64,000 nt of DNA from the NCBI GenBank assembly GCA_002328165.1, contig DCWS01000012.1, forward strand, positions 8,225 to 72,224. The letters run 5' to 3'. This DNA is from Desulfobacteraceae bacterium UBA2156 (GTDB lineage: Bacteria > Desulfobacterota > Desulfobacteria > Desulfobacterales > UBA2156). The notes under the pieces were generated by a model. That model saw only the letters and a program-made list of their open reading frames with translations, was not told where the DNA came from and ran no database searches. The translations under genes were made by a program, and so were the position numbers. Positions 25,759 through 37,025 of this stretch are shown here, one piece after another. Every line of letters starts with the position of its first letter. Within the stretch, counting starts at the first letter, position 1.

Positions 25759-25993
25759 GAAACAGCCAGCTGACGCCACTTTAGACCTGGTATGCCGTAT
25801 GTGTCCTCTCCATCTTTTGGAACCGGGTGACAGGCTAAAGTGCTTAAAAAAGGGGCAGGTCTTGGAAGTGCTGACCGATTATGACGGTGCCCTGGAAGAT
25901 ATTCCCAAGTGGTGTGAAAAGTGTGGGCAGGAATTTATCGGTGTAGAGGAAGACGAGGATTGTTACAAACTCTATATTCGAAAGGTTAAATGA
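25745..25993 (+). CDS. TusA/SirA-like sulfur carrier protein
   Basis: 'LDLVCRMCPLHLL...GQVLEVLTDYDGALEDIPKWCEKCGQEF' matches the TusA pattern (LDxxGxxCPxP ... DIPxW). The start is uncertain (25724 or 25745). It overlaps the end of cysE. Confidence 0.55.
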   Translation: MKFVEKQPADATLDLVCRMCPLHLLEPGDRLKCLKKGQVLEVLTDYDGALEDIPKWCEKCGQEFIGVEEDEDCYKLYIRKVK

Positions 25994-26004
25994 GGGAATT
26001 TGAT

Positions 26005-27180
26005 ATGAAGCGGGTTTATTTGGATCATGCCTCTGCCACGCCGATGAGGAGAGAAGTCATCGAAGCCATGCTTCCTTATTTTGACCAGCATTTTGGGAAT
26101 CCCTCGATGGTTTATGACATCGGTTCAAACGTCAAAGAGGTAATGGAGGAACAACGGCTAAAGATAGCAAAGCTCATTGGTGCAAACGCCGAAGAAATCA
26201 TTTTCACCTCATCTGGAGCTGAAGCCAACAATCTTGCGATCAAGGGCGTCGCTTTTGCCAGACAGAAAAAAGGGAAACATATCATCATTTCTGCCATTGA
26301 ACACCACTCGGTTCTCAACTCCGCTCGATTCTTCGAGCGCATGGATTTCGAGGTGACTCTCCTCCAAGTGGATGAACACGGCCTGGTGGACCCGGAACGT
26401 CTGTCTAAGGCGATAACGTCTGAAACGATTTTGGTATCCGTCATGCACGCAAACAATGAAATTGGAACCATCGAGCCGATTTCAGAACTTTCTGCCATAT
26501 GCAGATCAAAAGGAATTGTCTTTCATACCGATGCAGTTGCAACCGTTGGGAATATTCCGGTCGACGTCAATGAGCTGAATGTGGACCTATTGAGTTTTTC
26601 CGGTATTTCAATGGGGGCGCCTAAAGGAGTTGGGGCACTCTATTTCAGGGATAATTTAAGGCTGATGCCTTTAATTCACGGCGGTATCCAGGAAAAGGGG
26701 AGGCGGGGAGGAACCGAGAATATCCCAGGTATTGTCGGTTTAGGCAAGGCAGCTGAAATCATTTCAAAAGAACTGCCCGGCAAAGTGGCCCGCACGCGGA
26801 ACCTGAGGGACTTTTTAATCAAAGGCATCGGAGAACGGTTGGAATTTGTCAAATTGACCGGCCACCCGGACAAACGACTCCCAGGTCACGCCAGCTTTTG
26901 TGTTGAAGCGATCGAGGGAGAAGCCCTAACCTTTATGCTCAGTCAAGAGGGTATCTACGCAAATACCGGTTCCGCCTGTGCTTCAAAAGCCCTTAAAACA
27001 TCTCCGGTTCTGGTGGCCATCGGTGTTCGTCCGGAACTCGCCCAGGGCTCTGTCGTATTTACTCTCAATGGGAACCATGCGGTTGAAGAGTTGGAATATG
27101 TGCTGGAAAAATTTCAAGGTGATGTTGCAAAGCTTCGTGCACTTTCTCCCATTTGGATGGGAAAGGCGGCGACTAGATAA
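26005..27180 (+). CDS. IscS/NifS-family cysteine desulfurase homologue lacking the PLP-binding lysine
   Basis: Class V aminotransferase motifs are present ('SSGAEANN', 'AIEHHSV', 'MHANNEIGT', 'HTDAV') and the Cys loop 'TGSACAS' is retained. However, 'SFSGISMGAPKG' replaces the canonical 'SFSGHKxxGPKG'. Confidence 0.8.
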   Translation: MKRVYLDHASATPMRREVIEAMLPYFDQHFGNPSMVYDIGSNVKEVMEEQRLKIAKLIGANAEEIIFTSSGAEANNLAIKGVAFARQKKGKHIIISAIEHHSVLNSARFFERMDFEVTLLQVDEHGLVDPERLSKAITSETILVSVMHANNEIGTIEPISELSAICRSKGIVFHTDAVATVGNIPVDVNELNVDLLSFSGISMGAPKGVGALYFRDNLRLMPLIHGGIQEKGRRGGTENIPGIVGLGKAAEIISKELPGKVARTRNLRDFLIKGIGERLEFVKLTGHPDKRLPGHASFCVEAIEGEALTFMLSQEGIYANTGSACASKALKTSPVLVAIGVRPELAQGSVVFTLNGNHAVEELEYVLEKFQGDVAKLRALSPIWMGKAATR

Positions 27181-27193
27181 AAGGGGGTGAATC

Positions 27194-27562
27194 ATGTATT
27201 CAGAAAAAGTGATGGATCATTTCTCAAATCCGCGAAATGCTGGGAGCATCGAGGATGCCGACGGTATCGGCGAGATCGGCAACCCGGTCTGCGGTGACAT
27301 GATGACATTTTATATCAAGGTCAAAGATGATAAAATTTCCGAGATAAAATTCCAAACCTTCGGGTGTGTTGCCGCAATAGCTGTGTCGAGCATGGTTAGC
27401 GAGATGGCAGAAGGATGTACGTTAAAAGAAGCCAAAAAGATAAGCAACAAAAGCGTTGCATCCTCGCTTGACGGTCTTCCAAAGCAAAAGCTGCATTGCT
27501 CCAATCTTGGTGCTGATGCCCTCGCCAAGGCGATCCAGAATTATGAAAACAAAAATGTGTAA
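27194..27562 (+). CDS. iscU: Fe-S cluster scaffold protein (IscU / NifU N-terminal type)
   Basis: 122 aa with 'GNPVCGDMMTFYI', 'FQTFGCVAAIA' and 'LHCSNLGADAL', giving all three Cys ligands and the Asp. Confidence 0.85.
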   Translation: MYSEKVMDHFSNPRNAGSIEDADGIGEIGNPVCGDMMTFYIKVKDDKISEIKFQTFGCVAAIAVSSMVSEMAEGCTLKEAKKISNKSVASSLDGLPKQKLHCSNLGADALAKAIQNYENKNV

Positions 27563-27580
27563 AACTAATTTATTAAAAAA

Positions 27581-28681
27581 ATGAAAGAAAATCTTACGAA
27601 CGGCGAACTGGAGACCTATTCCAGACAGGTCGTCCTGGCTGGCATCGGTTATAGTGGACAGTTGAAACTCAAAAACGCCAAGGTCTGTATCATCGGGATG
27701 GGTGGTCTGGGGACACAGATTGCTTTTAAACTGGTTGGAATGGGGATCGGCTACCTCCGTATGGTTGACAGGGATATCGTTTCACGATCAGATTTGCACC
27801 GACAGTACCTATACAATGTTGATGTTGTGGGACAACCAAAAGTCGAAGCCGCTTTACAAAAACTGAACCGCTTAAATCCAGATGTGGAGCTCGATCCGGT
27901 TCCGGAATCTATGAATTCATCCAATGCCAAAGCGTTGATAGATGGCGTGGACATCGTTCTTGACGGTCTGGACAGTCCCCAAACCCGTTACCTGGTAAAT
28001 CGAACCTGCAACCATTTCAAGATACCCTATGTCTTTGGTTCTGCCATTGAAGCTTTTGGAAATGTCTCTACCATCGTGCCGGATAAAACGTTCTGTCTGG
28101 AGTGTTTCATGCCGGGTTTAAAAGATGAGGACCTTCCGTCATGTGGTGTCGTCGGTGTTCATCCGTCTGTTTTGGGTTTGGTTACAGCGATTCAGGTTGC
28201 AGAGGCGGTGAGATTCTTGACCGGCAAGGACCCGAAGTTGCTCAATAAGCTTTTATATATCGACCTTCAAGAGTTGGCGTTCGATACCATTGACATCTCT
28301 TCCTCACAAAACTGCCCTGTATGCGGAATCAAACCTGCCGGACCGCCGGAACGTTTGACGGACAACCTATTTGTGGAAACATGCGCAAAGGATGGAATGA
28401 GAAATTTTATCATTTCCCCCAGGGAAAGGATTGAAATTGACATTGAACGTCTGGATGCTGTTCTAAAAGAAAAAAGTTTGTCTGTAAAAAGTTCCAGCCC
28501 TTTTGGGATTACTTTCGAGGTATCCGAAGGCGTGCAAGGTAGCTTGCTTAAAAGCGGCCTTATGATCGTGCAGACATCTCCAAAACCGAAAAACAATATA
28601 AAAGACGATCTCTTTACGGCATACAAATCTGTCCTTGTGGACGGATTGGGCTTATCCCCAAACATTTTGCCCGATGTCTGA
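27581..28681 (+). CDS. ThiF/MoeB/HesA-family E1-like adenylyltransferase with an extra ~115-aa C-terminal domain
   Basis: 'YSRQVVL', 'IIGMGGLGTQIA', 'RSDLHRQ', and Zn-site pairs 'CLEC' and 'CPVC'. Residues ~250-366 match no domain I recognise. Confidence 0.75.
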   Translation: MKENLTNGELETYSRQVVLAGIGYSGQLKLKNAKVCIIGMGGLGTQIAFKLVGMGIGYLRMVDRDIVSRSDLHRQYLYNVDVVGQPKVEAALQKLNRLNPDVELDPVPESMNSSNAKALIDGVDIVLDGLDSPQTRYLVNRTCNHFKIPYVFGSAIEAFGNVSTIVPDKTFCLECFMPGLKDEDLPSCGVVGVHPSVLGLVTAIQVAEAVRFLTGKDPKLLNKLLYIDLQELAFDTIDISSSQNCPVCGIKPAGPPERLTDNLFVETCAKDGMRNFIISPRERIEIDIERLDAVLKEKSLSVKSSSPFGITFEVSEGVQGSLLKSGLMIVQTSPKPKNNIKDDLFTAYKSVLVDGLGLSPNILPDV

Positions 28682-28694
28682 AAAAAACCCTTTT

Positions 28695-29534
28695 TCATTC
28701 TTCCACCTTGCTTTTCCGGTGTTGAATATACGCATCCCGGAGCGCCTCATAGGGATCAATTGCAGCTTCTTTCAAGGACTCGTAATCACCCAGTCGGAAG
28801 GAGGTATCGTTTACGATCCTGTAACCATAGATACCAACCGCGGCTTCAACCGGTTCCATATAGGAAAGTGGGTTGATGAAGCTGTCTCCAAGCAAACCCA
28901 CTGAATCGCGCAGGGTGGATGGGCCCAGAAAAGGCCAAACGATATACACACCCTCTCCGATTCCATAGACACCTAAGGTTTGACCCAGATCCTCCTCACT
29001 TGGTTTTAAACGAGGATATCTCTTTGCCGGATTTCCAAAGCCGAGAATACCGAAGATGCTGTTCAACAGAAACCGATCGATTTCCGCATGAGCAGATTGC
29101 CACTTTCCTTGGAGGATGCAATTGGCCAAACGAATGGGGGTGGTTAGGTTGGTGAAAAAATTACTGACGCCAATTCGGGCAAGTTCTGGAACTACTACCT
29201 TATATGTCTTTGTAACAGGCTTGAGTATCCAGAAGTAAAATTTGTCGTTGAAGTGAAACATCCCTTTGTTCCAGAGCGATAGAGGATCCGGAACAGAGAT
29301 CTCATCTTCATCTTCGTATTCATCATCGTCAAAACTATCAGGGTCGTCGTTTTGATCAGCCGCATCATCCTCTGCGGGATTTGTTGACAACATTGAATTT
29401 CCCGTAGAAGCCAGCAGGTTTTGAATTTGATGAAAGGATGGATCTGCAAGAGATGGCGGAGGGTTTTCAGGAACAAGGGCACATCCAATCATGAATGAGA
29501 AAAGAAAAGAAAAGAACACGATTTGATGTTTCAA
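28695..29534 (-). CDS. mlaA: MlaA/VacJ family outer-membrane lipoprotein
   Basis: Lipobox 'MIGCA', an acidic linker, and the VacJ core 'FNDKFYFWILKPV...VSNFFTNLTTPIRLANCILQGK...FLLNSIFGILGFGNPA'. Confidence 0.8.
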   Translation of the reverse strand: MKHQIVFFSFLFSFMIGCALVPENPPPSLADPSFHQIQNLLASTGNSMLSTNPAEDDAADQNDDPDSFDDDEYEDEDEISVPDPLSLWNKGMFHFNDKFYFWILKPVTKTYKVVVPELARIGVSNFFTNLTTPIRLANCILQGKWQSAHAEIDRFLLNSIFGILGFGNPAKRYPRLKPSEEDLGQTLGVYGIGEGVYIVWPFLGPSTLRDSVGLLGDSFINPLSYMEPVEAAVGIYGYRIVNDTSFRLGDYESLKEAAIDPYEALRDAYIQHRKSKVEE

Positions 29535-29605: not shown

Positions 29606-30226
29606 TTATTGTTGTGCGGTTTTCTTTTTTTGCGCCTCATTTTTCTTTTTCAGACGTTCGATTAATTGATCGGGGGATACTTTTCGGAGGATTTTTTTGA
29701 ACTGGGTCCGGTAGTTTTTTACCAGTCCCACTCCCTCGATGATAACATCGTAGATCTTCCATTTTTTCCCGTGCAGACGCAGGTGGTAGTTCATCGGGAT
29801 TTTACCGTTTTCCCGGACGATTTCGGTTTTTACAATCGCCTTTTTATCTTTGATAATTGCCTCACCCAGATAGACCACCCTTTCATCATGGTACTCTCCC
29901 TGTACCTTGTTCAGATAAATGTTTCCGAGGAGTGTGGAAAAAACATCAGTAAACCGATCCCGTTGGCCGGAATTAAAGCGCTTCCAGTTGCGGGCCAGAG
30001 ATCGCTTGGACATCTCCCGAAAATCAAAGATCCCCCGTATGATCTTCCACAGTTCTTCCCGCTGGACCTCTTTTTTGTCTTTTTCACGGTATTGGGGGTC
30101 TTTTAGGATGCTGACGATTTCATTCATCGGTTTCTGCAGCGTTTCCATCGGCGGTGTGCCATGGACCAATGTCGTCATCCCGACAAGCATCAGAACCAGT
30201 GATAGCCCAAGCCATTTCGTGATCAT
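29606..30226 (-). CDS. mlaC: MlaC/Ttg2D periplasmic phospholipid-binding protein
   Basis: Signal peptide, then 'FDFREMSKRSLARNWKRF', 'YLNKVQGEY' and 'WKIYDVIIEGVGLVKNYRTQF'. Confidence 0.8.
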   Translation of the reverse strand: MITKWLGLSLVLMLVGMTTLVHGTPPMETLQKPMNEIVSILKDPQYREKDKKEVQREELWKIIRGIFDFREMSKRSLARNWKRFNSGQRDRFTDVFSTLLGNIYLNKVQGEYHDERVVYLGEAIIKDKKAIVKTEIVRENGKIPMNYHLRLHGKKWKIYDVIIEGVGLVKNYRTQFKKILRKVSPDQLIERLKKKNEAQKKKTAQQ

Positions 30227-30264: not shown

Positions 30265-30711
30265 TTAAACCCCGCCAAACACATATTTGCTGACCATCTC
30301 TTCCAAGTCAAGGGCGGACTCGGTTTCAGTTATCAGGTCTCCGGGTTTAAGAATCTCATCGGACCCACCCGACGAAAGTTTGATATACTTGTCTCCGATT
30401 AATCCGGCCGTTTTGACCGAGGCGATCACATCGTCGGTTAAAACCACTTCATTTTGTATTTTCATCTCAACAACGGCAATCTGCTTTTCGAGATCCAGTG
30501 AGATATCGGCAATATGGCCAATCTGAACCCCTGCCATTTCTATTTGGCCGCCTTTTCTGAGGCCGGTAATGGAATCGAAGTTGGCGAAGATAGAATAGTG
30601 ATTTTGGCCGATCCAATCCATTTGCCCCAGCTTGACGGTCAGGTATCCGACACATGCGATGCCGATCAAAACGAAAATACCGACACATGTATCAATGGTC
30701 GTTTTTTTCAT
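30265..30711 (-). CDS. mlaD: MlaD (MCE domain) protein
   Basis: From ORF 30265..30723. Start set at MKKTTIDTCVGIF with GGGAGG upstream. There is one TM segment and the MCE core 'GLRKGGQIEMAGVQIGHI'. Confidence 0.8.
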   Translation of the reverse strand: MKKTTIDTCVGIFVLIGIACVGYLTVKLGQMDWIGQNHYSIFANFDSITGLRKGGQIEMAGVQIGHIADISLDLEKQIAVVEMKIQNEVVLTDDVIASVKTAGLIGDKYIKLSSGGSDEILKPGDLITETESALDLEEMVSKYVFGGV

Positions 30712-30725
30712 AACGCCTCCCAAGC

Positions 30726-31940
30726 CTAACTAACAATGAACTCATAAAATGAATTCGTTATCGACTCTGCGCTGGCAAGCACATCGCCGATGGTTTTTTC
30801 TTTTTTTATCTCCTCATAGCCCGCGGTGACCGTAAAGCAGAATCCAGGATAGGGCTGAACCTCCAAAATTTCATTCCCCTTCAACTGGTCAGCCAATTTA
30901 GCGCAGAACATCCGGGCCTGTTTCAAGTTCGTGTTGGGGAGAATAACCATAATTTTATCCCGGCCTGCCCGGGAACAGGCGTCGGAAATACGGATGCGAT
31001 TCTTAACCTGTGTGGCAAAATTTATCAGTACGGTTTGAGCAGCGAGATGCCCCATTTCCCGAGAAATTTCATTTAGATTTTCCAATTTAAAAAGAACCAG
31101 GGAAAAGAAGGTGTTATGCCGGAGCATCCGAGCCACTTCTTCCCTGAACTTTTTTTCCATCTGGAGCTGGGTGGGCATTCCGGTCAGCCCGTCCTTTGGG
31201 GTGTCCAAACCCCGGATAAAATTCCGCACAACCGGATCCGAAGTATTACCGATTTCTTCCGGAGTTCCTTCAAAGACGATCCGGCCCTCATTCAACATGG
31301 CGATCCGTTGTGAAATGTAGAAAATATCCGGTATCTCATGGCTGACCATCACGCCGGTAAATCCAAACTTTTTCTGATAATCGGAAATCATGTGGTGCAC
31401 GGTTGTTTTGCGGATCGGGTCGAGGCCGGTGGTCGGTTCGTCAAAAAGGATAATCTCCGGATCCGTGACCAGCGCCCTTGCCAGGGCGATCCTTTTTTTC
31501 ATCCCCCCTGAGACCTCGGAAGGAAATTTGTGGTCAATCCTACCCAGGTCGAGCTGTTTCATTCTTTTCTTTACTCGCTGGTGAACCGCCTGTTCGGAAA
31601 ATGCTCCCCTCTCCCTCAAGGGGAGTGCGATATTATCAAAAATATCCAGCGAATCGAAAAGAGCCGTACTCTGGAACAGGTAACTGAATTTATGTTTCAG
31701 CTTCCTTTTCGCACGGTTATTCATCTCGGAAAGCGTCTTTCCACGAAAAAGGATTTTGCCTGAATCCGGCTCGATGAGACCGATGATGTGTTTGAGCAGG
31801 ACGCTCTTCCCCACCCCGCTTTTCCCGATGATGGTGGAAATCTCCCCCTGAAAAATACTGAGATCGGTTCCTTGCAAAACAGGCTGGCCACCAAATTTCT
31901 TAAAGACATTTTGAAATTGAATCAGTGGTTGTTTCATCAT
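30726..31940 (-). CDS. mlaF: MlaF-type ABC ATPase fused to a C-terminal degenerate GGDEF domain
   Basis: Residues 1-245 carry Walker A 'GKSGVGKS', signature 'VSGGMKKR', Walker B 'ILFDEPTTGLD' and H-loop 'VSHE'. Residues ~250-404 are colinear with the GGDEF fold (see the domain feature). Confidence 0.8.
   Translation of the reverse strand: MMKQPLIQFQNVFKKFGGQPVLQGTDLSIFQGEISTIIGKSGVGKSVLLKHIIGLIEPDSGKILFRGKTLSEMNNRAKRKLKHKFSYLFQSTALFDSLDIFDNIALPLRERGAFSEQAVHQRVKKRMKQLDLGRIDHKFPSEVSGGMKKRIALARALVTDPEIILFDEPTTGLDPIRKTTVHHMISDYQKKFGFTGVMVSHEIPDIFYISQRIAMLNEGRIVFEGTPEEIGNTSDPVVRNFIRGLDTPKDGLTGMPTQLQMEKKFREEVARMLRHNTFFSLVLFKLENLNEISREMGHLAAQTVLINFATQVKNRIRISDACSRAGRDKIMVILPNTNLKQARMFCAKLADQLKGNEILEVQPYPGFCFTVTAGYEEIKKEKTIGDVLASAESITNSFYEFIVS
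30729..31193 (-). other. Degenerate GGDEF-like domain of MlaF (A-site lost, RxxD I-site retained)
   Basis: 'DGLTGMPT', 'FSLVLFKLENLNEISREMGHLAAQTVL' and 'RISDACSRAGRDKIMVILPNT' align with the canonical 'DxLTGLxNR', 'DxDxFKxxNDxxGHxxGDxxL' and 'RxxDxxxRxGG(D/E)EFxxxLP'. RISD is at 30981-30992 and GRDKI at 30951-30965. Confidence 0.65.
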
Positions 31941-31943
31941 CTC

Positions 31944-32741
31944 TTACAGAAAAAAGGATGTCAATATATAATCGACTATAAGGATTAGGACACAGGAAGT
32001 CACCACGGCGGCGGTTGTCGCACTGCTAACCCCCTCAGCGCCGAATTTCGCCCGGGTGTGGGTAAAAAACCCCTGAAAACAGCATACCGTGACAACCACG
32101 GCGCCAAAAACAATCGATTTGATGAAACCGCTGGCAATGTCCTCCATTAAAACAGCGGATTCAACCCTGAAAAAATAAGTGCCGGGATTGATGCCGAGCA
32201 AAACCGAACCGCTGACATACCCGCCGAAAATGCCCACCACGTTAAAAAGGGCGGTCAATAAGGGAAAACTGATCACCGCAGCAGCGAACCTGGGGCTGAC
32301 CAGATACCGTATCGGGTTGATGTCCATGGTTTCGAGGGCATCGATCTGTTCGGAGATTCTCATGATTCCAATTTCCGCGGCTATGGACGACCCGGCTCTT
32401 GCAATCACCATAATTGCAGTCATCACCGGCCCCATTTCGCGGATCAGCGAAAGGGCCACGGCCGCACCGAGCAACCCCTCAGAGCCAAATTGCACCAGGG
32501 TGTAATATCCCTGGAATCCAAGTACCATTCCCGTGAATGTACCGGTCAAAATGATGACGAAAATCGATTTCGTCCCAATAAAATAAATCTGTTGAACGGT
32601 CTTTACAATCTGCAAGGGAAAAGAAAAAATATAGAAAAAGCCCTGAAAAAAAAAGACAGCAACACTTCCAAGCTCTCGAATTTTTAAGACGGTCAGTCTA
32701 CCCAGAGTGGACAAGGAATTTTTCAATATTACAAAGTTCAT
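31944..32741 (-). CDS. mlaE: MlaE ABC permease
   Basis: 265-aa polytopic protein with 'REMGPVMTAIMVIARAGSSIAAEIGIMRISEQIDALETM', diagnostic of the MlaE/Ttg2B family. Confidence 0.85.
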   Translation of the reverse strand: MNFVILKNSLSTLGRLTVLKIRELGSVAVFFFQGFFYIFSFPLQIVKTVQQIYFIGTKSIFVIILTGTFTGMVLGFQGYYTLVQFGSEGLLGAAVALSLIREMGPVMTAIMVIARAGSSIAAEIGIMRISEQIDALETMDINPIRYLVSPRFAAAVISFPLLTALFNVVGIFGGYVSGSVLLGINPGTYFFRVESAVLMEDIASGFIKSIVFGAVVVTVCCFQGFFTHTRAKFGAEGVSSATTAAVVTSCVLILIVDYILTSFFL

Positions 32742-32976
32742 TTCGGATGGCCAATAGACTGCTTACGGATTCAGTTTTTCCGTTATATCTTTTTAATTTT
32801 ATTAAATAAAACATAGAAAAACACACTTTTAGTGTCAAGAATAAAGCTTCACAATGGTTCATTTTTTCCCTTGCCCTCAAACCGCGATGGGTGCTAAAAT
32901 TTTAAAATGATGTTACATCAGTTTGTATAATTGTGCGATCTGTTCGACGAATCATCGACCAGAGGGTAATCGGATC

Positions 32977-33117: not shown

Positions 33118-34581
33118 ATGAGAACAAACTATCGAATCAATTCAGGGATACGATTCAACGTGTTGTCAAAAGATCAATTGCAGGCCTTATTTGATGGCGT
33201 GCTTCACCTTCTGGAGTACACCGGTCTTGACGTACATCACGAAGAGGCGCGTGACATTCTCCAGAAATCCGGCGCAACAATAGAAGGTCTCAGAGTACGC
33301 ATACCTGCCTATCTGGTGAAACGCGCTTTGCAGATGGCACCCCGGAGCTTCACCATCTTTGCACGCGATGGAAATCCCGATCACGATATTCACATCGGCC
33401 CAGGCCGGGCATACTTTGGTCCGGGCCCGACCCCCCCTAATTTCATTGATGTAGAGACCCTGGAGCGACGACCCTTCCTAAAATCCGATGCACGCATTGT
33501 AGCAAAAGTGGTGGATGCCCTTCCAAACATCGATTTTTGTGAGTCGCTGGGTACGATCAGTGACGTTCAATTTGAACTGGCAGCCAGCTATGAATTTGCA
33601 GAAATGTTTCCCAATACTAGTAAACCGATCGTGGCCTGGTCCTACGGGTGGGACGATTCGGAGGACATCCATAAAATCGCCGTTGCCGAGGCAGGGGGGC
33701 AGGAGGCATTTGAAAAACGTCCCAACTATATCCATTACTGTGAACCGCTGTCACCGCTGGTGAGTACATTCGAGGCGGTTGACAAACTCATTTTTGCGGT
33801 CAGACATCGGGTACCTCTGATATTTACCCCGTGTCCCTTGGCCGGAGGGACTGCACCGGTGACAGCGGCCGGCATCATCATCCAGTCAACGGCCGAATCA
33901 TGGATGGGGCTGGTTCTTTCCCAGACCATCCAACCCGGCATCCCTTTTTTCATGGGAGGGGTTCTATCGGTAATGGATATGAGTGACATGATACTTTCCT
34001 ATGGTGCACCCGAACTGTCCCTGATGATGGCCGGCAGTACCGAATTGGCCCATTACGCCGGTATCCCTCTTTGGCAAACAGGGGGCTGCACTGATTCTAA
34101 AGTGCTCGACGAACAGGCTGCGCTCGAAGGCTCACTTTCTTGCTTTTTTTCTGCACTGACAGGCGGCGATCTGTGCCACGACGTTGGATACACCGAGAGC
34201 GGAATGACTGGCTCTATTTTACAAACAGCAATGATGGACGAAGCAATCGGCTATTCGCGCCGTATAACACGGGGTATCGATGTTAACGACGAAACATTAG
34301 CCACCAACGTCATCCATAAGGTCGGTCCCAATGGGCACTATTTGTATGAAAAACACACGCGCCGACATTTCAAGAGTGAGTACTGGTACCCCAATCTATG
34401 TGATCGGCACAGTTTTGAGGAGTGGGAAAAGAAGGGACGTACAACCATGCGCGATAGGGTCATTACGCGGGTTCAAGACATCCTGGGCACTCATCAAACC
34501 TCTCCCATTAAACCGGACACAGAGGCGGCGATCAGGGAGGTTCTGGAAGCAGCTGAAGACCGGGTTAAGAAATCCGCCTAG
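33118..34581 (+). CDS. MttB-superfamily methyltransferase, non-pyrrolysine type (quaternary-amine:corrinoid methyltransferase candidate), paralogue 1
   Basis: 487 aa. The N-terminal 'LSKDQLQALFDGVLHLLEYTGLDVHHEEARDILQKSGA' and the overall length are typical of the MttB family. The ORF is uninterrupted with no in-frame TAG. Confidence 0.8.
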   Translation: MRTNYRINSGIRFNVLSKDQLQALFDGVLHLLEYTGLDVHHEEARDILQKSGATIEGLRVRIPAYLVKRALQMAPRSFTIFARDGNPDHDIHIGPGRAYFGPGPTPPNFIDVETLERRPFLKSDARIVAKVVDALPNIDFCESLGTISDVQFELAASYEFAEMFPNTSKPIVAWSYGWDDSEDIHKIAVAEAGGQEAFEKRPNYIHYCEPLSPLVSTFEAVDKLIFAVRHRVPLIFTPCPLAGGTAPVTAAGIIIQSTAESWMGLVLSQTIQPGIPFFMGGVLSVMDMSDMILSYGAPELSLMMAGSTELAHYAGIPLWQTGGCTDSKVLDEQAALEGSLSCFFSALTGGDLCHDVGYTESGMTGSILQTAMMDEAIGYSRRITRGIDVNDETLATNVIHKVGPNGHYLYEKHTRRHFKSEYWYPNLCDRHSFEEWEKKGRTTMRDRVITRVQDILGTHQTSPIKPDTEAAIREVLEAAEDRVKKSA

Positions 34582-34618
34582 GGGCCTGTATCGGACTCGA
34601 ATCAAAAGGAGAATTACA

Positions 34619-35260
34619 ATGAGTACAATTTATCAGCAATTGTCAACGTCCATCATTGATGGAGATGAAGAGAAGACTCCCGAGTTAGTCCGGAAAGCAT
34701 TGGATCAGGGATTGGCACCCGTAGAAATCCTGGACAATGGGCTTCTTCTTGGAATGAACAAAGTGAGCCGCCGATTCGAACAAGAGGAAATGTTTGTACC
34801 CGAAGTGCTGTTGGCGGCCAAAGCTATGCATGACGGTCTAGAAGTGTTACGACCCCATCTGATTGCTACCGGAACCAAGCCGATCGGTAGGATTGTTCTG
34901 GGCACCGTAAAAGGCGACATCCACGATATCGGTAAAAACTTGGTCGGCATGATGTGCGAAGGTGCTGGCTTTGAAGTGATTAATCTGGGCTTTGATGTAG
35001 ACCCCGAGAAATTTATAGAGGCTGTCAAGGAAAATCAGCCGGATATCATTGGCATGTCAGCGATGCTGACCACAACGATGATCACCATGGGTTATACCAT
35101 TAAAGCCTTAAAAGAAGCGAATCTGCGCGATTCGGTAAAAGTGATCGTTGGTGGTGCTCCCGTCGATTCCGAAACTGTCGAGCGGATCGGCGCTGATGGG
35201 TATGCCTACAATGGACCCACTGCGGTTAAATTGGTAAAGCGTCTATTAGACGTGGCCTAG
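34619..35260 (+). CDS. Cobalamin-binding corrinoid protein (MtgC/MttC-like)
   Basis: Start set at MSTIYQQ (AAAGGAGAA upstream). The ORF-track start 34331 is an in-frame extension. It has a B12-binding-2 cap helix region, 'GDIHDIGKN' (DxHxxG), 'MSAMLTTTM' and 'VGGAPV'. Confidence 0.85.
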   Translation: MSTIYQQLSTSIIDGDEEKTPELVRKALDQGLAPVEILDNGLLLGMNKVSRRFEQEEMFVPEVLLAAKAMHDGLEVLRPHLIATGTKPIGRIVLGTVKGDIHDIGKNLVGMMCEGAGFEVINLGFDVDPEKFIEAVKENQPDIIGMSAMLTTTMITMGYTIKALKEANLRDSVKVIVGGAPVDSETVERIGADGYAYNGPTAVKLVKRLLDVA

Positions 35261-35522
35261 CCTATGGGAGCTGACGACAACAGCCAGAACGAACTAGAAG
35301 CATATCGGCCTCAAGCACACAAAGTTGCCCACTATTATGAGCAGTAGGGTCTGCACTACGAAGAGATCCTCGGCGCCGATGAATATGTGCGCTGTCTGGT
35401 CGATGTGGCTAGCATGACAGACAAAACTGACGACAATTTTGCAATAATTCCGTCTGGTGGAGAGATCCGACAGGAACAATTCATACGTCAATAAGGCGTA
35501 AGCAACATAAGGAGAACCGATT

Positions 35523-37025
35523 ATGCAAGTACACAGGACGAATTATCAGATAAACGAAACGCCAACGCTCCAAGTACTTACCGAAGATCAGATCGAAGCT
35601 ATCTATTATGCTGCTCTACGGGTGTTATATGAAACAGGGGTTCGCGTATATGACAAAGAAGGCGTTGAAGTTGCCTATTCCGGTGGCGCAATTGTGGAGG
35701 ATAAAACCGATGAGAGTCACTTGGTGCAAATTCCGCATTGGCTGGTAGAAAAGGCGCGGGTCACCGTGCCGAGCAAGGTAGTTCTCGCTGGATTCGACCG
35801 AAAGTACCGTATGGAACTTTACAAAAACCAGATCTATTTTGGAGGTGGCTCAGACACACCGTTTACCCTTGATCCTTACACAGGAAAACGGCGACGTACT
35901 ACGTACCGAGATGTGAAAAATATTGCTCGGCTGGCGCAGGCGTTACCCAACTTAAACTTCCACATGTCCTTGGGGATTACCCAGGACACCGCTGTAAGTA
36001 CATACGACCGCTGGCAATATTTGGCCATGGTAGAGGGGACCAGCAAGCCGATCAATGTCACCGCTGTAGACGCCGAAGGCCTGGGTGATATCCTTGAAAT
36101 GGCTCACATCCTGGTGGGCGGTAAGGAAGAGTGGCGGAAAGGCCCGACATTTTCAATTTATATCGAGCCTGTATCGCCGTTGAGCCACACTAAAGAGGTC
36201 GTGCAAAAGCTTCTGTTTGCCACCGACAACGACATTCCCTGTGTCTATACGCCCTGTCCACTTGCCGGTGCGACGGCACCAACCACTTTGGCTGGTTTAC
36301 TGGTACAATCCCTGGCTGAAAGCCTGTTCGGTATTGTGATCAGCCAGATACGAAAACCAGGGGCTCAGATCATCATCGGCGGTTTGATGTCAAACATGGA
36401 TATGAAAACCGCCACCTATACATACGGCTCCCCGGAGATGGCCCTGATGAGCGCTGGTTACACCGATATCACCAAATGGCTGCGAGTGCCGATGTATGAA
36501 ACAGCCGGATGCTCCGATGCCAAGCTTTTCGACGAGCAATCGGTGATGGAGGCGACGATCAACATCTCCACCGCCGCTCTCATCGGTGGCAACATGATTC
36601 ATGATGTGGGTTATCTTGACTCGGGCTTGACCAGCTCAATGGAGCAGATGGTCGCTGCCGACGAAATCATTGATATGGTGAAGCGCATTTTGCGGGGCAT
36701 TCCTGTGAACGACGATACAATGGCCCTGGATGTGATGGGTGCTGTTGGCCCGAGTGGCCATTTTATGGAACACAATCACACCTACAACCACTTTAAGAAC
36801 GAAATTTGGCGGCCAAAGCTGATTGATCGTCAAAATTGGGAGGACTGGACCCACTGCGGAAGCAAACGTTACGGCGAACGGGTCCACGATCGGGTGATCA
36901 AAATACTGGAGACCGAAACAGAGCCCCTCCTGAACGAAGCAACTTACAAGGAGCTGAGCCGCATCTGTGAACTGGCCGATACTCGTCACAAAGACGAAGA
37001 GCTCGATGTAAAGATGTTTGTGTAG
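35523..37025 (+). CDS. MttB-superfamily methyltransferase, non-pyrrolysine type, paralogue 2
   Basis: 500 aa and colinear with paralogue 1 ('LTEDQIEAIYYAALRVLYETGV', 'YTPCPLAGATAP', 'HDVGYLDSG'). No in-frame TAG. Confidence 0.8.
   Translation: MQVHRTNYQINETPTLQVLTEDQIEAIYYAALRVLYETGVRVYDKEGVEVAYSGGAIVEDKTDESHLVQIPHWLVEKARVTVPSKVVLAGFDRKYRMELYKNQIYFGGGSDTPFTLDPYTGKRRRTTYRDVKNIARLAQALPNLNFHMSLGITQDTAVSTYDRWQYLAMVEGTSKPINVTAVDAEGLGDILEMAHILVGGKEEWRKGPTFSIYIEPVSPLSHTKEVVQKLLFATDNDIPCVYTPCPLAGATAPTTLAGLLVQSLAESLFGIVISQIRKPGAQIIIGGLMSNMDMKTATYTYGSPEMALMSAGYTDITKWLRVPMYETAGCSDAKLFDEQSVMEATINISTAALIGGNMIHDVGYLDSGLTSSMEQMVAADEIIDMVKRILRGIPVNDDTMALDVMGAVGPSGHFMEHNHTYNHFKNEIWRPKLIDRQNWEDWTHCGSKRYGERVHDRVIKILETETEPLLNEATYKELSRICELADTRHKDEELDVKMFV

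What the first reader, a model, noticed from the sequence alone, without database searches (positions are those of the whole stretch)
30726..31940. MlaF lipid-transport ATPase fused to a degenerate GGDEF domain that keeps the c-di-GMP I-site
The sequence shows a complete ABC nucleotide-binding domain in residues 1-245. It is followed by about 155 aa that align block by block with the GGDEF fold. 'DGLTGMPT' corresponds to DxLTGLxNR, and 'LVLFKLENLNEISREMGHLAAQTVL' corresponds to DxDxFKxxNDxxGHxxGDxxL. 'RISDACSRAGRDKIMVILPNT' corresponds to RxxDxxxRxGG(D/E)EFxxxLP. The catalytic positions are gone: GGDEF is replaced by GRDKI, the metal-binding D-x-D is lost, and substrate-binding N/R are replaced by T/Q. 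The RxxD inhibitory-site motif survives at exactly the canonical five-residue distance from the former A-site. Established knowledge says that degenerate GGDEF domains with an intact I-site act as c-di-GMP receptors (PelD and PopA are the classic cases). My inference is that c-di-GMP, or another nucleotide, may allosterically gate Mla-type phospholipid trafficking and so link biofilm/motility signalling to outer-membrane lipid homeostasis. I am not aware of a described MlaF-GGDEF architecture.
Basis: partly seen in the sequence, partly recalled or inferred. Interest (0 to 1): 0.8.

Follow-up and report, generated by a model that had tools for sequence, protein, structure and literature searches.

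The report
MlaF lipid-transport ATPase with dead GGDEF domain

Summary
A 404-aa ORF on the minus strand (30726-31940) is the MlaF ATPase of an mlaE-F-D-C-A operon, fused to a GGDEF domain (Pfam 64.7 bits; Foldseek probability 1.0 to SiaD, WspR and PleD).

The catalytic site is destroyed: GGDEF reads GRDKI, and the family consensus is GLNKI. All four residues that build a PleD-type c-di-GMP inhibitory site are present: R271, R317, D320 and K348. Across 121 Desulfobacterales homologues all four co-occur in 74 %, against 59 % in the nearest intact cyclases. None of the 121 keeps GG(D/E)EF. So the A-site decayed while the I-site was kept.

There is an important qualification. A sister clade of about 411-aa fusions (120 sequences, including Desulfocurvibacter africanus) keeps the domain but has no I-site at all. 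It shares other derived residues instead: T285, N288, Q302, I330 and C368. The domain's core role is therefore independent of the I-site, and is probably dimerisation or regulation of the ATPase. c-di-GMP control is a plausible layer specific to the window's clade.

The architecture is widespread and automatically annotated, sometimes as "diguanylate cyclase". I found no paper describing it.

The parts
30726..31940 (-). mlaF-GGDEF fusion gene, 404 aa plus stop codon
   Evidence: ORF list; Pfam ABC_tran + GGDEF; identical gene call in four public sources
31206..31940 (-). ABC nucleotide-binding domain, residues 1-245 (MlaF-type)
   Evidence: PF00005 E 1.5e-33; best NCBIfam model MlaF NF008809, 191.9 bits, aligned 4-245
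31803..31826 (-). Walker A, GKSGVGKS (residues 39-46)
   Evidence: invariant in alignment A1
31497..31514 (-). ABC signature VSGGMK (residues 143-148), with the Met typical of Mla/TGD ATPases
   Evidence: the Met at this position is stated to be conserved in Mla-type NBDs in PMC7367683
31437..31454 (-). Walker B, IILFDE (residues 163-168)
   Evidence: D167 and E168 invariant
31338..31340 (-). H-loop histidine, H201
   Evidence: invariant
31194..31205 (-). Four-residue linker DTPK (residues 246-249) between the two domains
   Evidence: pLDDT falls to about 60-67 around here in the full-length model
30729..31193 (-). Degenerate GGDEF domain, residues 250-404
   Evidence: PF00990 64.7 bits; TIGR00254 63.5 bits; GGDEF fold by Foldseek against the PDB
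31128..31130 (-). R271, equivalent of PleD R313 (the I-site arginine supplied by the partner domain)
   Evidence: Mapping n -> PleD n+42, assumed ungapped because the spans are equal in length; role from PMC7288161; R in 107/121
31026..31100 (-). Former A-site segment LVLFKLENLNEISREMGHLAAQTVL. K285, E287, S293 and Q302 replace the canonical D, D, N and D; N288 is invariant
30981..30992 (-). RxxD I-site motif, RISD (residues 317-320)
   Evidence: Aligned to WspR RPSD and 3ign RQSD; R 88 %, D 100 % of 121
30951..30965 (-). GRDKI (residues 326-330), in place of GG(D/E)EF
   Evidence: family consensus GLNKI; 0 of 121 intact
30897..30899 (-). K348, equivalent of PleD R390 (third I-site residue)
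   Evidence: K95 + R16 of 121
30975..30977 (-). C322, Cys near-invariant in clade 1, two residues after D320
   Evidence: 120/121; Cys in only 8/96 canonical GGDEFs
30903..30905 (-). C346, Cys near-invariant in clade 1, two residues before K348
   Evidence: 116/121; Cys in only 7/96 canonical GGDEFs
31944..32741 (-). mlaE permease gene; its stop codon lies 3 nt before the mlaF start
   Evidence: PF02405 E 1.6e-80
30265..30711 (-). mlaD (MCE domain). The ATG start with a GGGAGG Shine-Dalgarno gives 148 aa; an alternative TTG at 30723 gives 152 aa
   Evidence: PF02470; public gene calls give 148 aa; sequence
29606..30226 (-). mlaC, periplasmic lipid shuttle
   Evidence: PF05494 E 2.2e-45
28695..29534 (-). 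mlaA/vacJ, outer-membrane lipoprotein
   Evidence: PF04333 E 3e-68
32810..32838 (-). Candidate operon promoter, TTGACA-17-TATGTT, upstream of mlaE. This is a consensus match only
   Evidence: the number of such sites in the region is not above the shuffled expectation

Best explanation
SHOWN: the gene is the resident MlaF ATPase of a five-gene mlaE-mlaF-mlaD-mlaC-mlaA operon. Its intact ABC domain is followed, after a four-residue linker, by a GGDEF-fold domain that cannot make c-di-GMP. The fusion is old: it is shared by Desulfobacterales, Desulfovibrionales, Smithella/Syntrophales relatives and a Lentisphaerales MAG, and it is always degenerate.

INFERRED: MlaF works as a dimer, so the two C-terminal GGDEF-like domains lie side by side beneath the nucleotide-binding domains. 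They would act as a dimerising and regulatory module, comparable to the C-terminal regulatory domains of other ABC ATPases and to the C-terminal 'handshake' that E. coli MlaF needs.

INFERRED for the window's clade: this clade keeps a full PleD-type inhibitory site. RxxD (R317, D320) and K348 come from one domain, and R271 comes from the partner domain. Intercalated c-di-GMP dimers would cross-link the two domains. That would restrict the opening and closing cycle of the ATPase dimer and so modulate, most probably inhibit or uncouple, phospholipid transport when c-di-GMP is high. This would link the sessile/biofilm signal to outer-membrane lipid homeostasis.
For: Architecture and operon.

GGDEF homology and fold.

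Dead A-site: K285/E287/S293/Q302/GRDKI stand against D/D/N/D/GG[DE]EF, which are 92-96 of 96 in the nearest intact relatives. None of 121 family members keeps the motif.

Complete I-site: the four-residue rule comes from PMC7288161. The mapping by the phmmer match to PleD (equal spans, taken as ungapped) gives R271=R313, R317=R359, D320=D362 and K348=R390. D320 is 121/121, R317 106/121, R271 107/121 and K/R348 111/121. All four co-occur in 89/121, against 57/96 in intact relatives. With sequence weighting D320 ranks 3rd and R317 33rd of 159 positions.

The fusion is the operon's own MlaF: synteny holds in every fusion locus with enough flank.

Single origin: one clade in the ABC-domain tree, and shared derived residues between the two clades.

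Precedents: a C-terminal dimeriser (GCN4) substantially rescues E. coli MlaF lacking its handshake (PMC7367683). c-di-AMP bound between the CBS domains that follow the OpuA ATPase domains blocks transport (PMC7673798).
Against: There are no binding or activity data. R317 is replaced by P, E, G, S, N or Q in 15/121 sequences, in about six sublineages, and a quarter of the family lacks at least one of the four residues. The R390-equivalent is mostly Lys, not Arg.

The sister clade (120 sequences) has R at position 317 in 0/120, G69/D37 at 320 and mostly Glu at 348, yet it keeps the domain well conserved. The distant fusions at loci L006-L014 also lack RxxD. So selection keeps the domain for a reason other than the I-site.

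Plain MlaFs of about 247 aa work in the same operon context in Desulfobacula and other Desulfobacteraceae, so the domain is dispensable.

The relative geometry of the two domains in a dimer could not be modelled. The baseline set of intact GGDEFs was chosen by similarity to the query, and this may inflate its I-site frequency. The direction of the effect (inhibition or activation) is pure analogy.
Confidence: 0.45

Rival explanations
1. Ligand-independent dimerisation or scaffold module. The dead GGDEF domain simply holds the two MlaF subunits together, or on MlaE. It would do the job that the C-terminal handshake and MlaB do in E. coli. The I-site residues of clade 1 would be leftovers, or would now serve protein-protein contacts.
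For: The domain is conserved in the sister clade without any I-site. No MlaB/STAS gene and no E. coli-type C-terminal extension is present in the operon. An artificial C-terminal dimeriser substantially rescues E. coli MlaF lacking its extension (PMC7367683). Helix alpha1 (E262, R264, F265, E267, E268, R271) is highly conserved, as expected of an interface.
Against: This does not explain why all four I-site residues are kept at 74-100 % in clade 1 at a divergence where clade 2 has none. Plain MlaFs of about 247 aa, with neither an extension nor this domain, exist in the same clade and operon context, so a dimeriser is not obligatory.
Confidence: 0.27
2. Sensor of a different signal. A remodelled pocket on the former A-site face (T/S285, N288, Q302, R324, DxLTG), or the conserved cysteines, would bind another nucleotide or small molecule, or sense redox state, and pass this on to the ATPase.
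For: The residues shared by both clades lie in the former substrate-binding half: N288 is 121/121 and 91/120, Q302 is 101/121 and 109/120, R324 is 118/121 and 119/120, and C368 is 94/121 and 111/120. These are specific replacements, not random decay. C322 and C346 are near-invariant in clade 1 but are Cys in only 7-8 % of canonical GGDEFs.
Against: The Mg2+ ligands are lost, and the C-terminal helix that carries the phosphate-binding Lys/Arg of cyclases (recalled from the PleD literature) is not matched by the Pfam profile. Canonical GTP binding is therefore unlikely, and no candidate ligand is indicated. Cysteine geometry could not be measured because no coordinates were available. The window protein itself has Ser in place of the terminal Cys.
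Confidence: 0.2
3. Active diguanylate cyclase, as some database records name it. The protein would make c-di-GMP locally at the transporter.
For: Some automatic annotations say 'diguanylate cyclase'. The domain passes the Pfam GGDEF threshold.
Against: GG(D/E)EF is GRDKI here and GLNKI in the family consensus, and 0/121 sequences are intact. Both metal-binding acidic positions and the guanine-binding Asp are replaced, whereas they are 92-96/96 in intact relatives.
Confidence: 0.01
4. Assembly or gene-calling artefact. A frameshift or chimeric contig would have joined an mlaF gene to an unrelated GGDEF gene.
For: None found.
Against: The identical 404-aa product is on 8 contigs, with places shown from NCBI, ENA, JGI and Logan. 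There are 240 listed 90 %-identity clusters with the same two-domain layout and length, in conserved synteny.
Confidence: 0.01

Closest known systems
PelD and PopA type degenerate-GGDEF c-di-GMP receptors (PelD: PMC7288161; PopA from memory)
   Same: A catalytically dead GGDEF domain that keeps RxxD at the canonical position plus a downstream basic residue. It is proposed to act as a receptor rather than an enzyme.
   Different: The output here is an ABC ATPase fused directly upstream, not a polysaccharide synthase complex or a proteolysis adaptor. The partner-domain arginine (the R313 equivalent) is also kept, which suggests cross-linking of two identical domains. Binding is untested.
Product inhibition of PleD and WspR through the I-site (PMC7288161)
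   Same: The same four-residue site (R359, D362, R390, plus R313 from the neighbouring domain). The same proposed mechanism applies: c-di-GMP dimers immobilise two GGDEF domains relative to each other.
   Different: In PleD and WspR the immobilised activity is the cyclase itself. Here the immobilised partner would be the pair of ABC nucleotide-binding domains.
OpuA/OpuC osmolyte ABC transporters regulated by c-di-AMP through CBS domains C-terminal to the ATPase (PMC7673798)
   Same: A cyclic dinucleotide binds between two regulatory domains that follow the two NBDs. This restrains NBD movement and blocks transport. It is the closest mechanistic precedent.
   Different: The messenger differs (c-di-AMP), the sensor fold differs (CBS) and the transporter class and substrate differ. 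That case is shown experimentally, unlike this one.
E. coli MlaF C-terminal extension plus MlaB (STAS) (PMC7367683)
   Same: An accessory element at the C-terminus of MlaF that promotes NBD dimerisation and association with MlaE, and is proposed as a regulatory site.
   Different: E. coli uses a 25-aa extended peptide and a separate STAS protein. Here a 155-aa GGDEF fold is fused in cis, and no MlaB gene is in the operon.
C-terminal regulatory domains of MetN, ModC and MalK (MetNI mentioned in PMC7367683; the others from memory)
   Same: Dimeric ligand-binding domains below the NBDs that set the NBD configuration (trans-inhibition).
   Different: The folds and ligands are unrelated, and those ligands are the transported substrates or regulators of sugar uptake.

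Membership tests
MlaF (ATPase of the Mla/MCE phospholipid ABC transporter) | Complete ABC nucleotide-binding domain with Walker A, Q-loop, signature, Walker B and H-loop | tested here: met
   PF00005 E 1.5e-33; motifs read directly and invariant in the family
MlaF (ATPase of the Mla/MCE phospholipid ABC transporter) | Met in the signature motif (LSGGM), typical of Mla- and TGD-type NBDs | tested here: met
   VSGGMK at residues 143-148; the feature is described in PMC7367683
MlaF (ATPase of the Mla/MCE phospholipid ABC transporter) | Encoded next to the MlaE permease and the MlaD MCE protein (with MlaC and MlaA) | tested here: met
   mlaE-F-D-C-A in the window and in all related fusion loci with enough flank
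MlaF (ATPase of the Mla/MCE phospholipid ABC transporter) | Score above the NCBIfam equivalog cutoff for MlaF (NF008809) | tested here: not met
   MlaF is the best-scoring model, but at 191.9 bits against a cutoff of 441. The model is built on proteobacterial MlaF, so orthology here rests on synteny instead
MlaF (ATPase of the Mla/MCE phospholipid ABC transporter) | E. coli-type C-terminal handshake and an MlaB (STAS) partner | tested here: not met
   The GGDEF domain starts four residues after the NBD, and there is no further gene in the operon. This feature is lineage-specific rather than defining
GGDEF domain superfamily (PF00990) | Profile match above the curated threshold | tested here: met
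   64.7 bits against 23.8; TIGR00254 63.5 against 37.4; 41,262 representatives matched at E <= 1e-3
GGDEF domain superfamily (PF00990) | GGDEF (palm-like) fold | tested here: met
   Model pLDDT 83.5. All 50 listed PDB hits are GGDEF-domain structures, probability 1.00, TMq 0.67-0.78
Active diguanylate cyclase | GG(D/E)EF active-site motif | tested here: not met
   GRDKI in the window; 0/121 intact in the family
Active diguanylate cyclase | Metal-binding acidic residues and guanine-binding Asn/Asp (PleD D327, D329, N335, D344 by the n+42 mapping) | tested here: not met
   K285, E287, S293 and Q302 in the window; these positions are D/D/N/D in 92-96 of 96 intact relatives
I-site c-di-GMP receptor (degenerate GGDEF of PelD/PopA type) | RxxD motif five residues upstream of the (former) GGDEF motif | tested here: met
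   R317-I-S-D320, in register with WspR and 3ign; R 88 %, D 100 % in the family
I-site c-di-GMP receptor (degenerate GGDEF of PelD/PopA type) | Additional basic residues that complete the site (PleD R390, and R313 from the adjacent domain) | tested here: met
   K348 and R271 by the n+42 mapping; basic in 92 % and 92 % of the family. K rather than R at 348 is a caveat
I-site c-di-GMP receptor (degenerate GGDEF of PelD/PopA type) | Measured, I-site-dependent binding of c-di-GMP | not testable with these tools
   Needs a biochemical assay
ABC ATPase with a C-terminal ligand-sensing regulatory domain (OpuA, MetN type) | Extra globular domain fused C-terminally to the NBD | tested here: met
   Residues 250-404
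ABC ATPase with a C-terminal ligand-sensing regulatory domain (OpuA, MetN type) | Ligand binding at the domain dimer changes transport | not testable with these tools
   Only monomer prediction was available, and there is no assay

The most novel reading that the evidence does not exclude
In Desulfobacterales, c-di-GMP dimers bridge the two dead GGDEF domains of the MlaF dimer (RxxD and K348 of one chain, R271 of the other) and directly gate the Mla phospholipid transporter. This would be the first second-messenger switch acting on the machinery that maintains outer-membrane lipid asymmetry. It would be layered on an older, I-site-independent role of a remodelled GGDEF pocket (T285, N288, Q302, C368) whose ligand or partner is unknown.
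Probability: 0.4. Interest if true: 0.8.

Novelty: new variant of a known kind. Interest (0 to 1): 0.6.

Why it matters
How bacteria adjust Mla-type lipid trafficking after translation is largely unknown. In E. coli only the MlaB/handshake site has been proposed as a control point (PMC7367683). A c-di-GMP-sensing domain built into the ATPase would give a direct, testable route from the biofilm/motility messenger to outer-membrane lipid balance. By extension (from memory: lowered Mla activity raises vesicle release) it would also reach vesicle production and envelope permeability.

Nature has also supplied controls. One clade has a complete I-site, a sister clade has none, and a sublineage has lost the domain altogether.

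In practical terms, database records that call these proteins 'diguanylate cyclase' are very likely wrong, and genome censuses of c-di-GMP enzymes in sulfate reducers should not count them.

Tried and rejected
1. A locus search seeded with the C-terminal domain alignment alone failed because no stretch was conserved enough. I used the full-length alignment instead.

2. The exhaustive representative search with the domain mainly returned short, probably fragmentary proteins plus ordinary GGDEF proteins. The family collapses into a few 50 % clusters, so the search sized the superfamily but not the fusion family.

4. No model coordinates are exposed. I therefore could not measure the C322-C346 distance, domain packing against the NBD, or dimer geometry. 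Only monomer prediction is offered.

5. I considered and rejected an active cyclase (motif and metal ligands gone) and an assembly artefact.

6. I considered and down-weighted a simple replacement of MlaB, because plain MlaF operons in related genomes also lack MlaB.

7. L048 (Verrucomicrobia), which sits next to the fusion clade in the tree, was checked and is a plain MlaF followed by a non-coding spacer.

8. A tblastn of the window with 40 canonical GGDEF fragments found no other GGDEF gene, so the window itself gives no independent evidence of c-di-GMP turnover in this organism.

9. Five literature searches found no description of the architecture. The library lacks most subscription journals.
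Full report
**What is there.** The coordinates 30726-31940 hold a single 404-aa ORF on the minus strand. It lies in a tight five-gene cluster on that strand. The genes are MlaE permease (31944-32741), this gene, MlaD (30265-30711), MlaC (29606-30226) and MlaA (28695-29534), and each carries a strong Pfam match. The mlaE stop is 3 nt from the mlaF start. mlaD starts 14 nt after the mlaF stop, behind a GGGAGG ribosome-binding site. The exact protein is on record in an NCBI MAG (GCA_030743995.1, 85-kb contig) and in ENA, JGI and Logan metagenome assemblies, with the same gene calls and the same neighbours.

Residues 1-245 are a complete ABC ATPase domain, and every catalytic motif is present. The best NCBIfam model is MlaF, although the score is below the equivalog cutoff, which was built on proteobacterial sequences. 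The signature motif carries the Met that the MlaFB paper describes as typical of Mla-type ATPases.

Residues 250-393 match the Pfam GGDEF model at 64.7 bits against a cutoff of 23.8. They also match solved GGDEF domains by sequence. A domain-only AlphaFold model (pLDDT 83.5, pTM 0.80) finds only GGDEF structures in the PDB, at probability 1.00.

DGLTGMPTQ aligns with DxLTGLxNR. K285, E287, S293 and Q302 replace the canonical D, D, N and D. RISD aligns with the RxxD of WspR and 3ign. GRDKI aligns with GGEEF.

**It is a family, not an accident.** All 120 best homologues are about 403 aa, carry both domains and are 55-64 % identical to the window protein apart from one 91 % match. Where a source names them they come from Desulfobacterales lineages (Desulfococcaceae, Desulfatirhabdiaceae) or are labelled only Thermodesulfobacteriota, Deltaproteobacteria or Pseudomonadota.

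The fusion is therefore the operon's own ATPase and not an extra paralogue. The ABC half is more conserved than the GGDEF half (weighted top-residue frequency 0.79 against 0.63), but both are clearly constrained.

**A-site dead, I-site kept.** None of the 121 members has GG(D/E)EF, and the consensus is G-L-N-K-I. In the 96 nearest catalytically intact GGDEF representatives, the positions that the family has replaced are essentially invariant: D 96/96, D 92/96, N 96/96 and D 93/96.

A review of cyclic-dinucleotide signalling states the I-site rule (PMC7288161). The site is formed by RxxD (PleD R359, D362) and R390 of one domain, plus R313 of the adjacent domain, and c-di-GMP dimers cross-link the two domains.

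The phmmer match to PleD covers spans of equal length, so I take it as ungapped, with protein residue n corresponding to PleD n+42. On that mapping the four residues are R317, D320, K348 and R271. Their frequencies in the family are:

| Residue | Count of 121 |
|---|---|
| R317 | 106 |
| D320 | 121 |
| K/R348 | 111 |
| R271 | 107 |

All four co-occur in 89/121 (74 %), against 57/96 (59 %) in the intact relatives.

**What weakens it.** R317 is lost in about six small sublineages. More importantly, the fusion is much wider than the window's clade. Fusions of 405-418 aa occur in Desulfovibrionaceae, Desulfohalobiaceae, Smithella and other delta-proteobacterial MAGs, and in one Lentisphaerales MAG. 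Their GGDEF scores range from 59 bits down to undetectable.

A search seeded with the Desulfovibrionaceae protein found 120 clusters of mostly about 411 aa, all carrying both domains and including cultured Desulfocurvibacter africanus. In that clade position 317 is never Arg (D52, G50). Position 320 is Gly or Asp. The R390-equivalent is mostly Glu. C322 and C346 are Ser and Leu.

The same clade nevertheless shares with clade 1 a set of specific derived residues: T/S285, N288, Q302, I330, R324, C368, the DxLTG motif and a Cys near the C-terminus. A crude neighbour-joining tree of the ABC domains, without support values, puts all fusions in one clade. That clade also contains four plain Desulfobacteraceae/Desulfobacula MlaFs of about 247 aa, and one long-branch Verrucomicrobia sequence (L048) that is also a plain MlaF.

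The simplest history is one old fusion of an already or soon-dead GGDEF domain. The I-site was then retained only in the Desulfobacterales clade, and the whole domain was lost secondarily in one sublineage. So the domain is attached to MlaF for a reason that does not depend on the I-site.

**How it most likely works.** MlaF acts as a dimer. In E. coli it needs a C-terminal handshake to stay dimeric and bound to MlaE, and an artificial C-terminal dimeriser (GCN4) substantially restores function when the handshake is deleted (PMC7367683). A GGDEF-fold domain fused four residues after the ATPase domain is well placed to play that part, and also to act as a regulatory domain.

For the window's clade the complete four-residue I-site fits the PleD/WspR mechanism. 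In that mechanism, c-di-GMP dimers tie two GGDEF domains together. Here that would restrain the two ATPase domains.

The closest worked example is OpuA. There, c-di-AMP binds between the CBS domains that follow the ATPase domains, keeps the ATPase domains from opening fully, and blocks transport (PMC7673798).

I therefore commit to a dimerising regulatory module that, in this clade, responds to c-di-GMP and most likely inhibits or uncouples transport. I put the c-di-GMP step at about 0.45. The architecture, the loss of catalysis and the operon context are shown. The dimer geometry, the binding and the direction of the effect are inferred.

**Rivals.**
- A ligand-independent dimeriser (0.27). 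It explains clade 2 but not the selective retention of four I-site residues in clade 1.
- A sensor of another ligand, or of redox state, through the remodelled A-site face or the conserved cysteines (0.2). It explains the residues shared by both clades but has no candidate ligand.
- An active cyclase and an assembly artefact. Both are excluded.

**Novelty.** Databases name these proteins automatically as ATP-binding cassette proteins or Mla ATP-binding proteins, and sometimes as diguanylate cyclases. The last label is very likely wrong. Five full-text searches found no paper describing an MlaF-GGDEF fusion or a link between c-di-GMP and Mla at the protein level. The library omits most subscription journals.

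Both ingredients are known kinds: degenerate GGDEF receptors, and ABC ATPases with C-terminal regulatory domains. Their combination on a lipid-asymmetry transporter is a new variant.

**Limits.**
- The two sets of about 120 sequences are top-hit lists and are not independent lineages. A sequence-weighted check gave the same picture.
- The baseline set of intact GGDEFs was chosen by similarity to the query.
- The tree has no support values.
- PleD numbering rests on equal-length match spans plus the numbering given in the review.

Noticed in passing
window 30975-30977 (C322), 30903-30905 (C346), 30837-30839 (C368), 30729-31 (S404): There are four conserved Cys positions in the GGDEF-like domain. 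C322 (120/121) and C346 (116/121) flank the I-site residues D320 and K348, at positions that are ordinary hydrophobic residues in canonical GGDEFs (Cys in 7-8 %). C368 and a C-terminal Cys are conserved in both fusion clades. The pattern C-C-C-C occurs in 82/121 sequences. The window protein is an exception, with Ser at the last position. A redox or metal role is possible. Distances could not be measured.
   Followed up: partly
window 31026-31100; related proteins P0271-P0390: The former A-site face carries specific replacements that are conserved across both fusion clades, not random decay: T/S for the metal-binding Asp, invariant N288, and Gln for the guanine-binding Asp. This suggests a remodelled pocket or interface with an unknown partner.
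   Followed up: partly
L008 6001-6744, L013 3499-4251, L015 and L017 6001-6741: Desulfobacteraceae and Desulfobacula genomes carry a plain 246-250-aa MlaF in the same mlaE-F-D-(C)-A order. mlaD starts a few to about 35 nt after the stop, so there is no room for a GGDEF domain. In the tree these branch inside the fusion clade, which fits secondary loss of the domain.
   Followed up: partly
L080 6001-7557; L049 6001-7496: Two other unusual MlaF layouts turned up. One is a single ORF with two tandem MlaF-like ABC cassettes (L080, a Proteobacteria MAG). The other is two adjacent MlaF-like ABC matches (L049, Leptospiraceae).
   Followed up: no
window 33118-37025 (+ strand): Divergently oriented next to the mla operon are two MttB-family methyltransferase genes (487 and 500 aa, PF06253), flanking a corrinoid-binding protein gene (B12-binding, about 213 aa). 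This is a methylamine or glycine-betaine type methyltransferase set in a marine Desulfobacterales MAG. The mechanical ORF 34331-35260 (309 aa) overlaps the end of the first MttB gene; public calls use a shorter 213-aa product.
   Followed up: no
window about 25990-28681 and beyond (seen in L081/L082): Downstream of mlaA on the opposite strand lies a sulfur-relay and tRNA-thiolation cluster: a ThiF/MoeB-like E1 enzyme, NifU_N, a cysteine desulfurase, TusA, an MnmA-type tRNA methyltransferase/thiolase and ThiI.
   Followed up: no
window 30711-30723: The mlaD start is ambiguous in a mechanical ORF list (TTG at 30723, 152 aa). That TTG lies inside the GGGAGG ribosome-binding site of the ATG at 30711 (148 aa), and the ATG is the start used by all public gene calls.
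   Followed up: yes
P0411/P0414 (Desulfocurvibacter africanus), P0067, P0312, P0331: Several public records name these fusion proteins 'diguanylate cyclase' although none has a GG(D/E)EF motif or the metal ligands. This is a probable systematic mis-annotation.
   Followed up: partly
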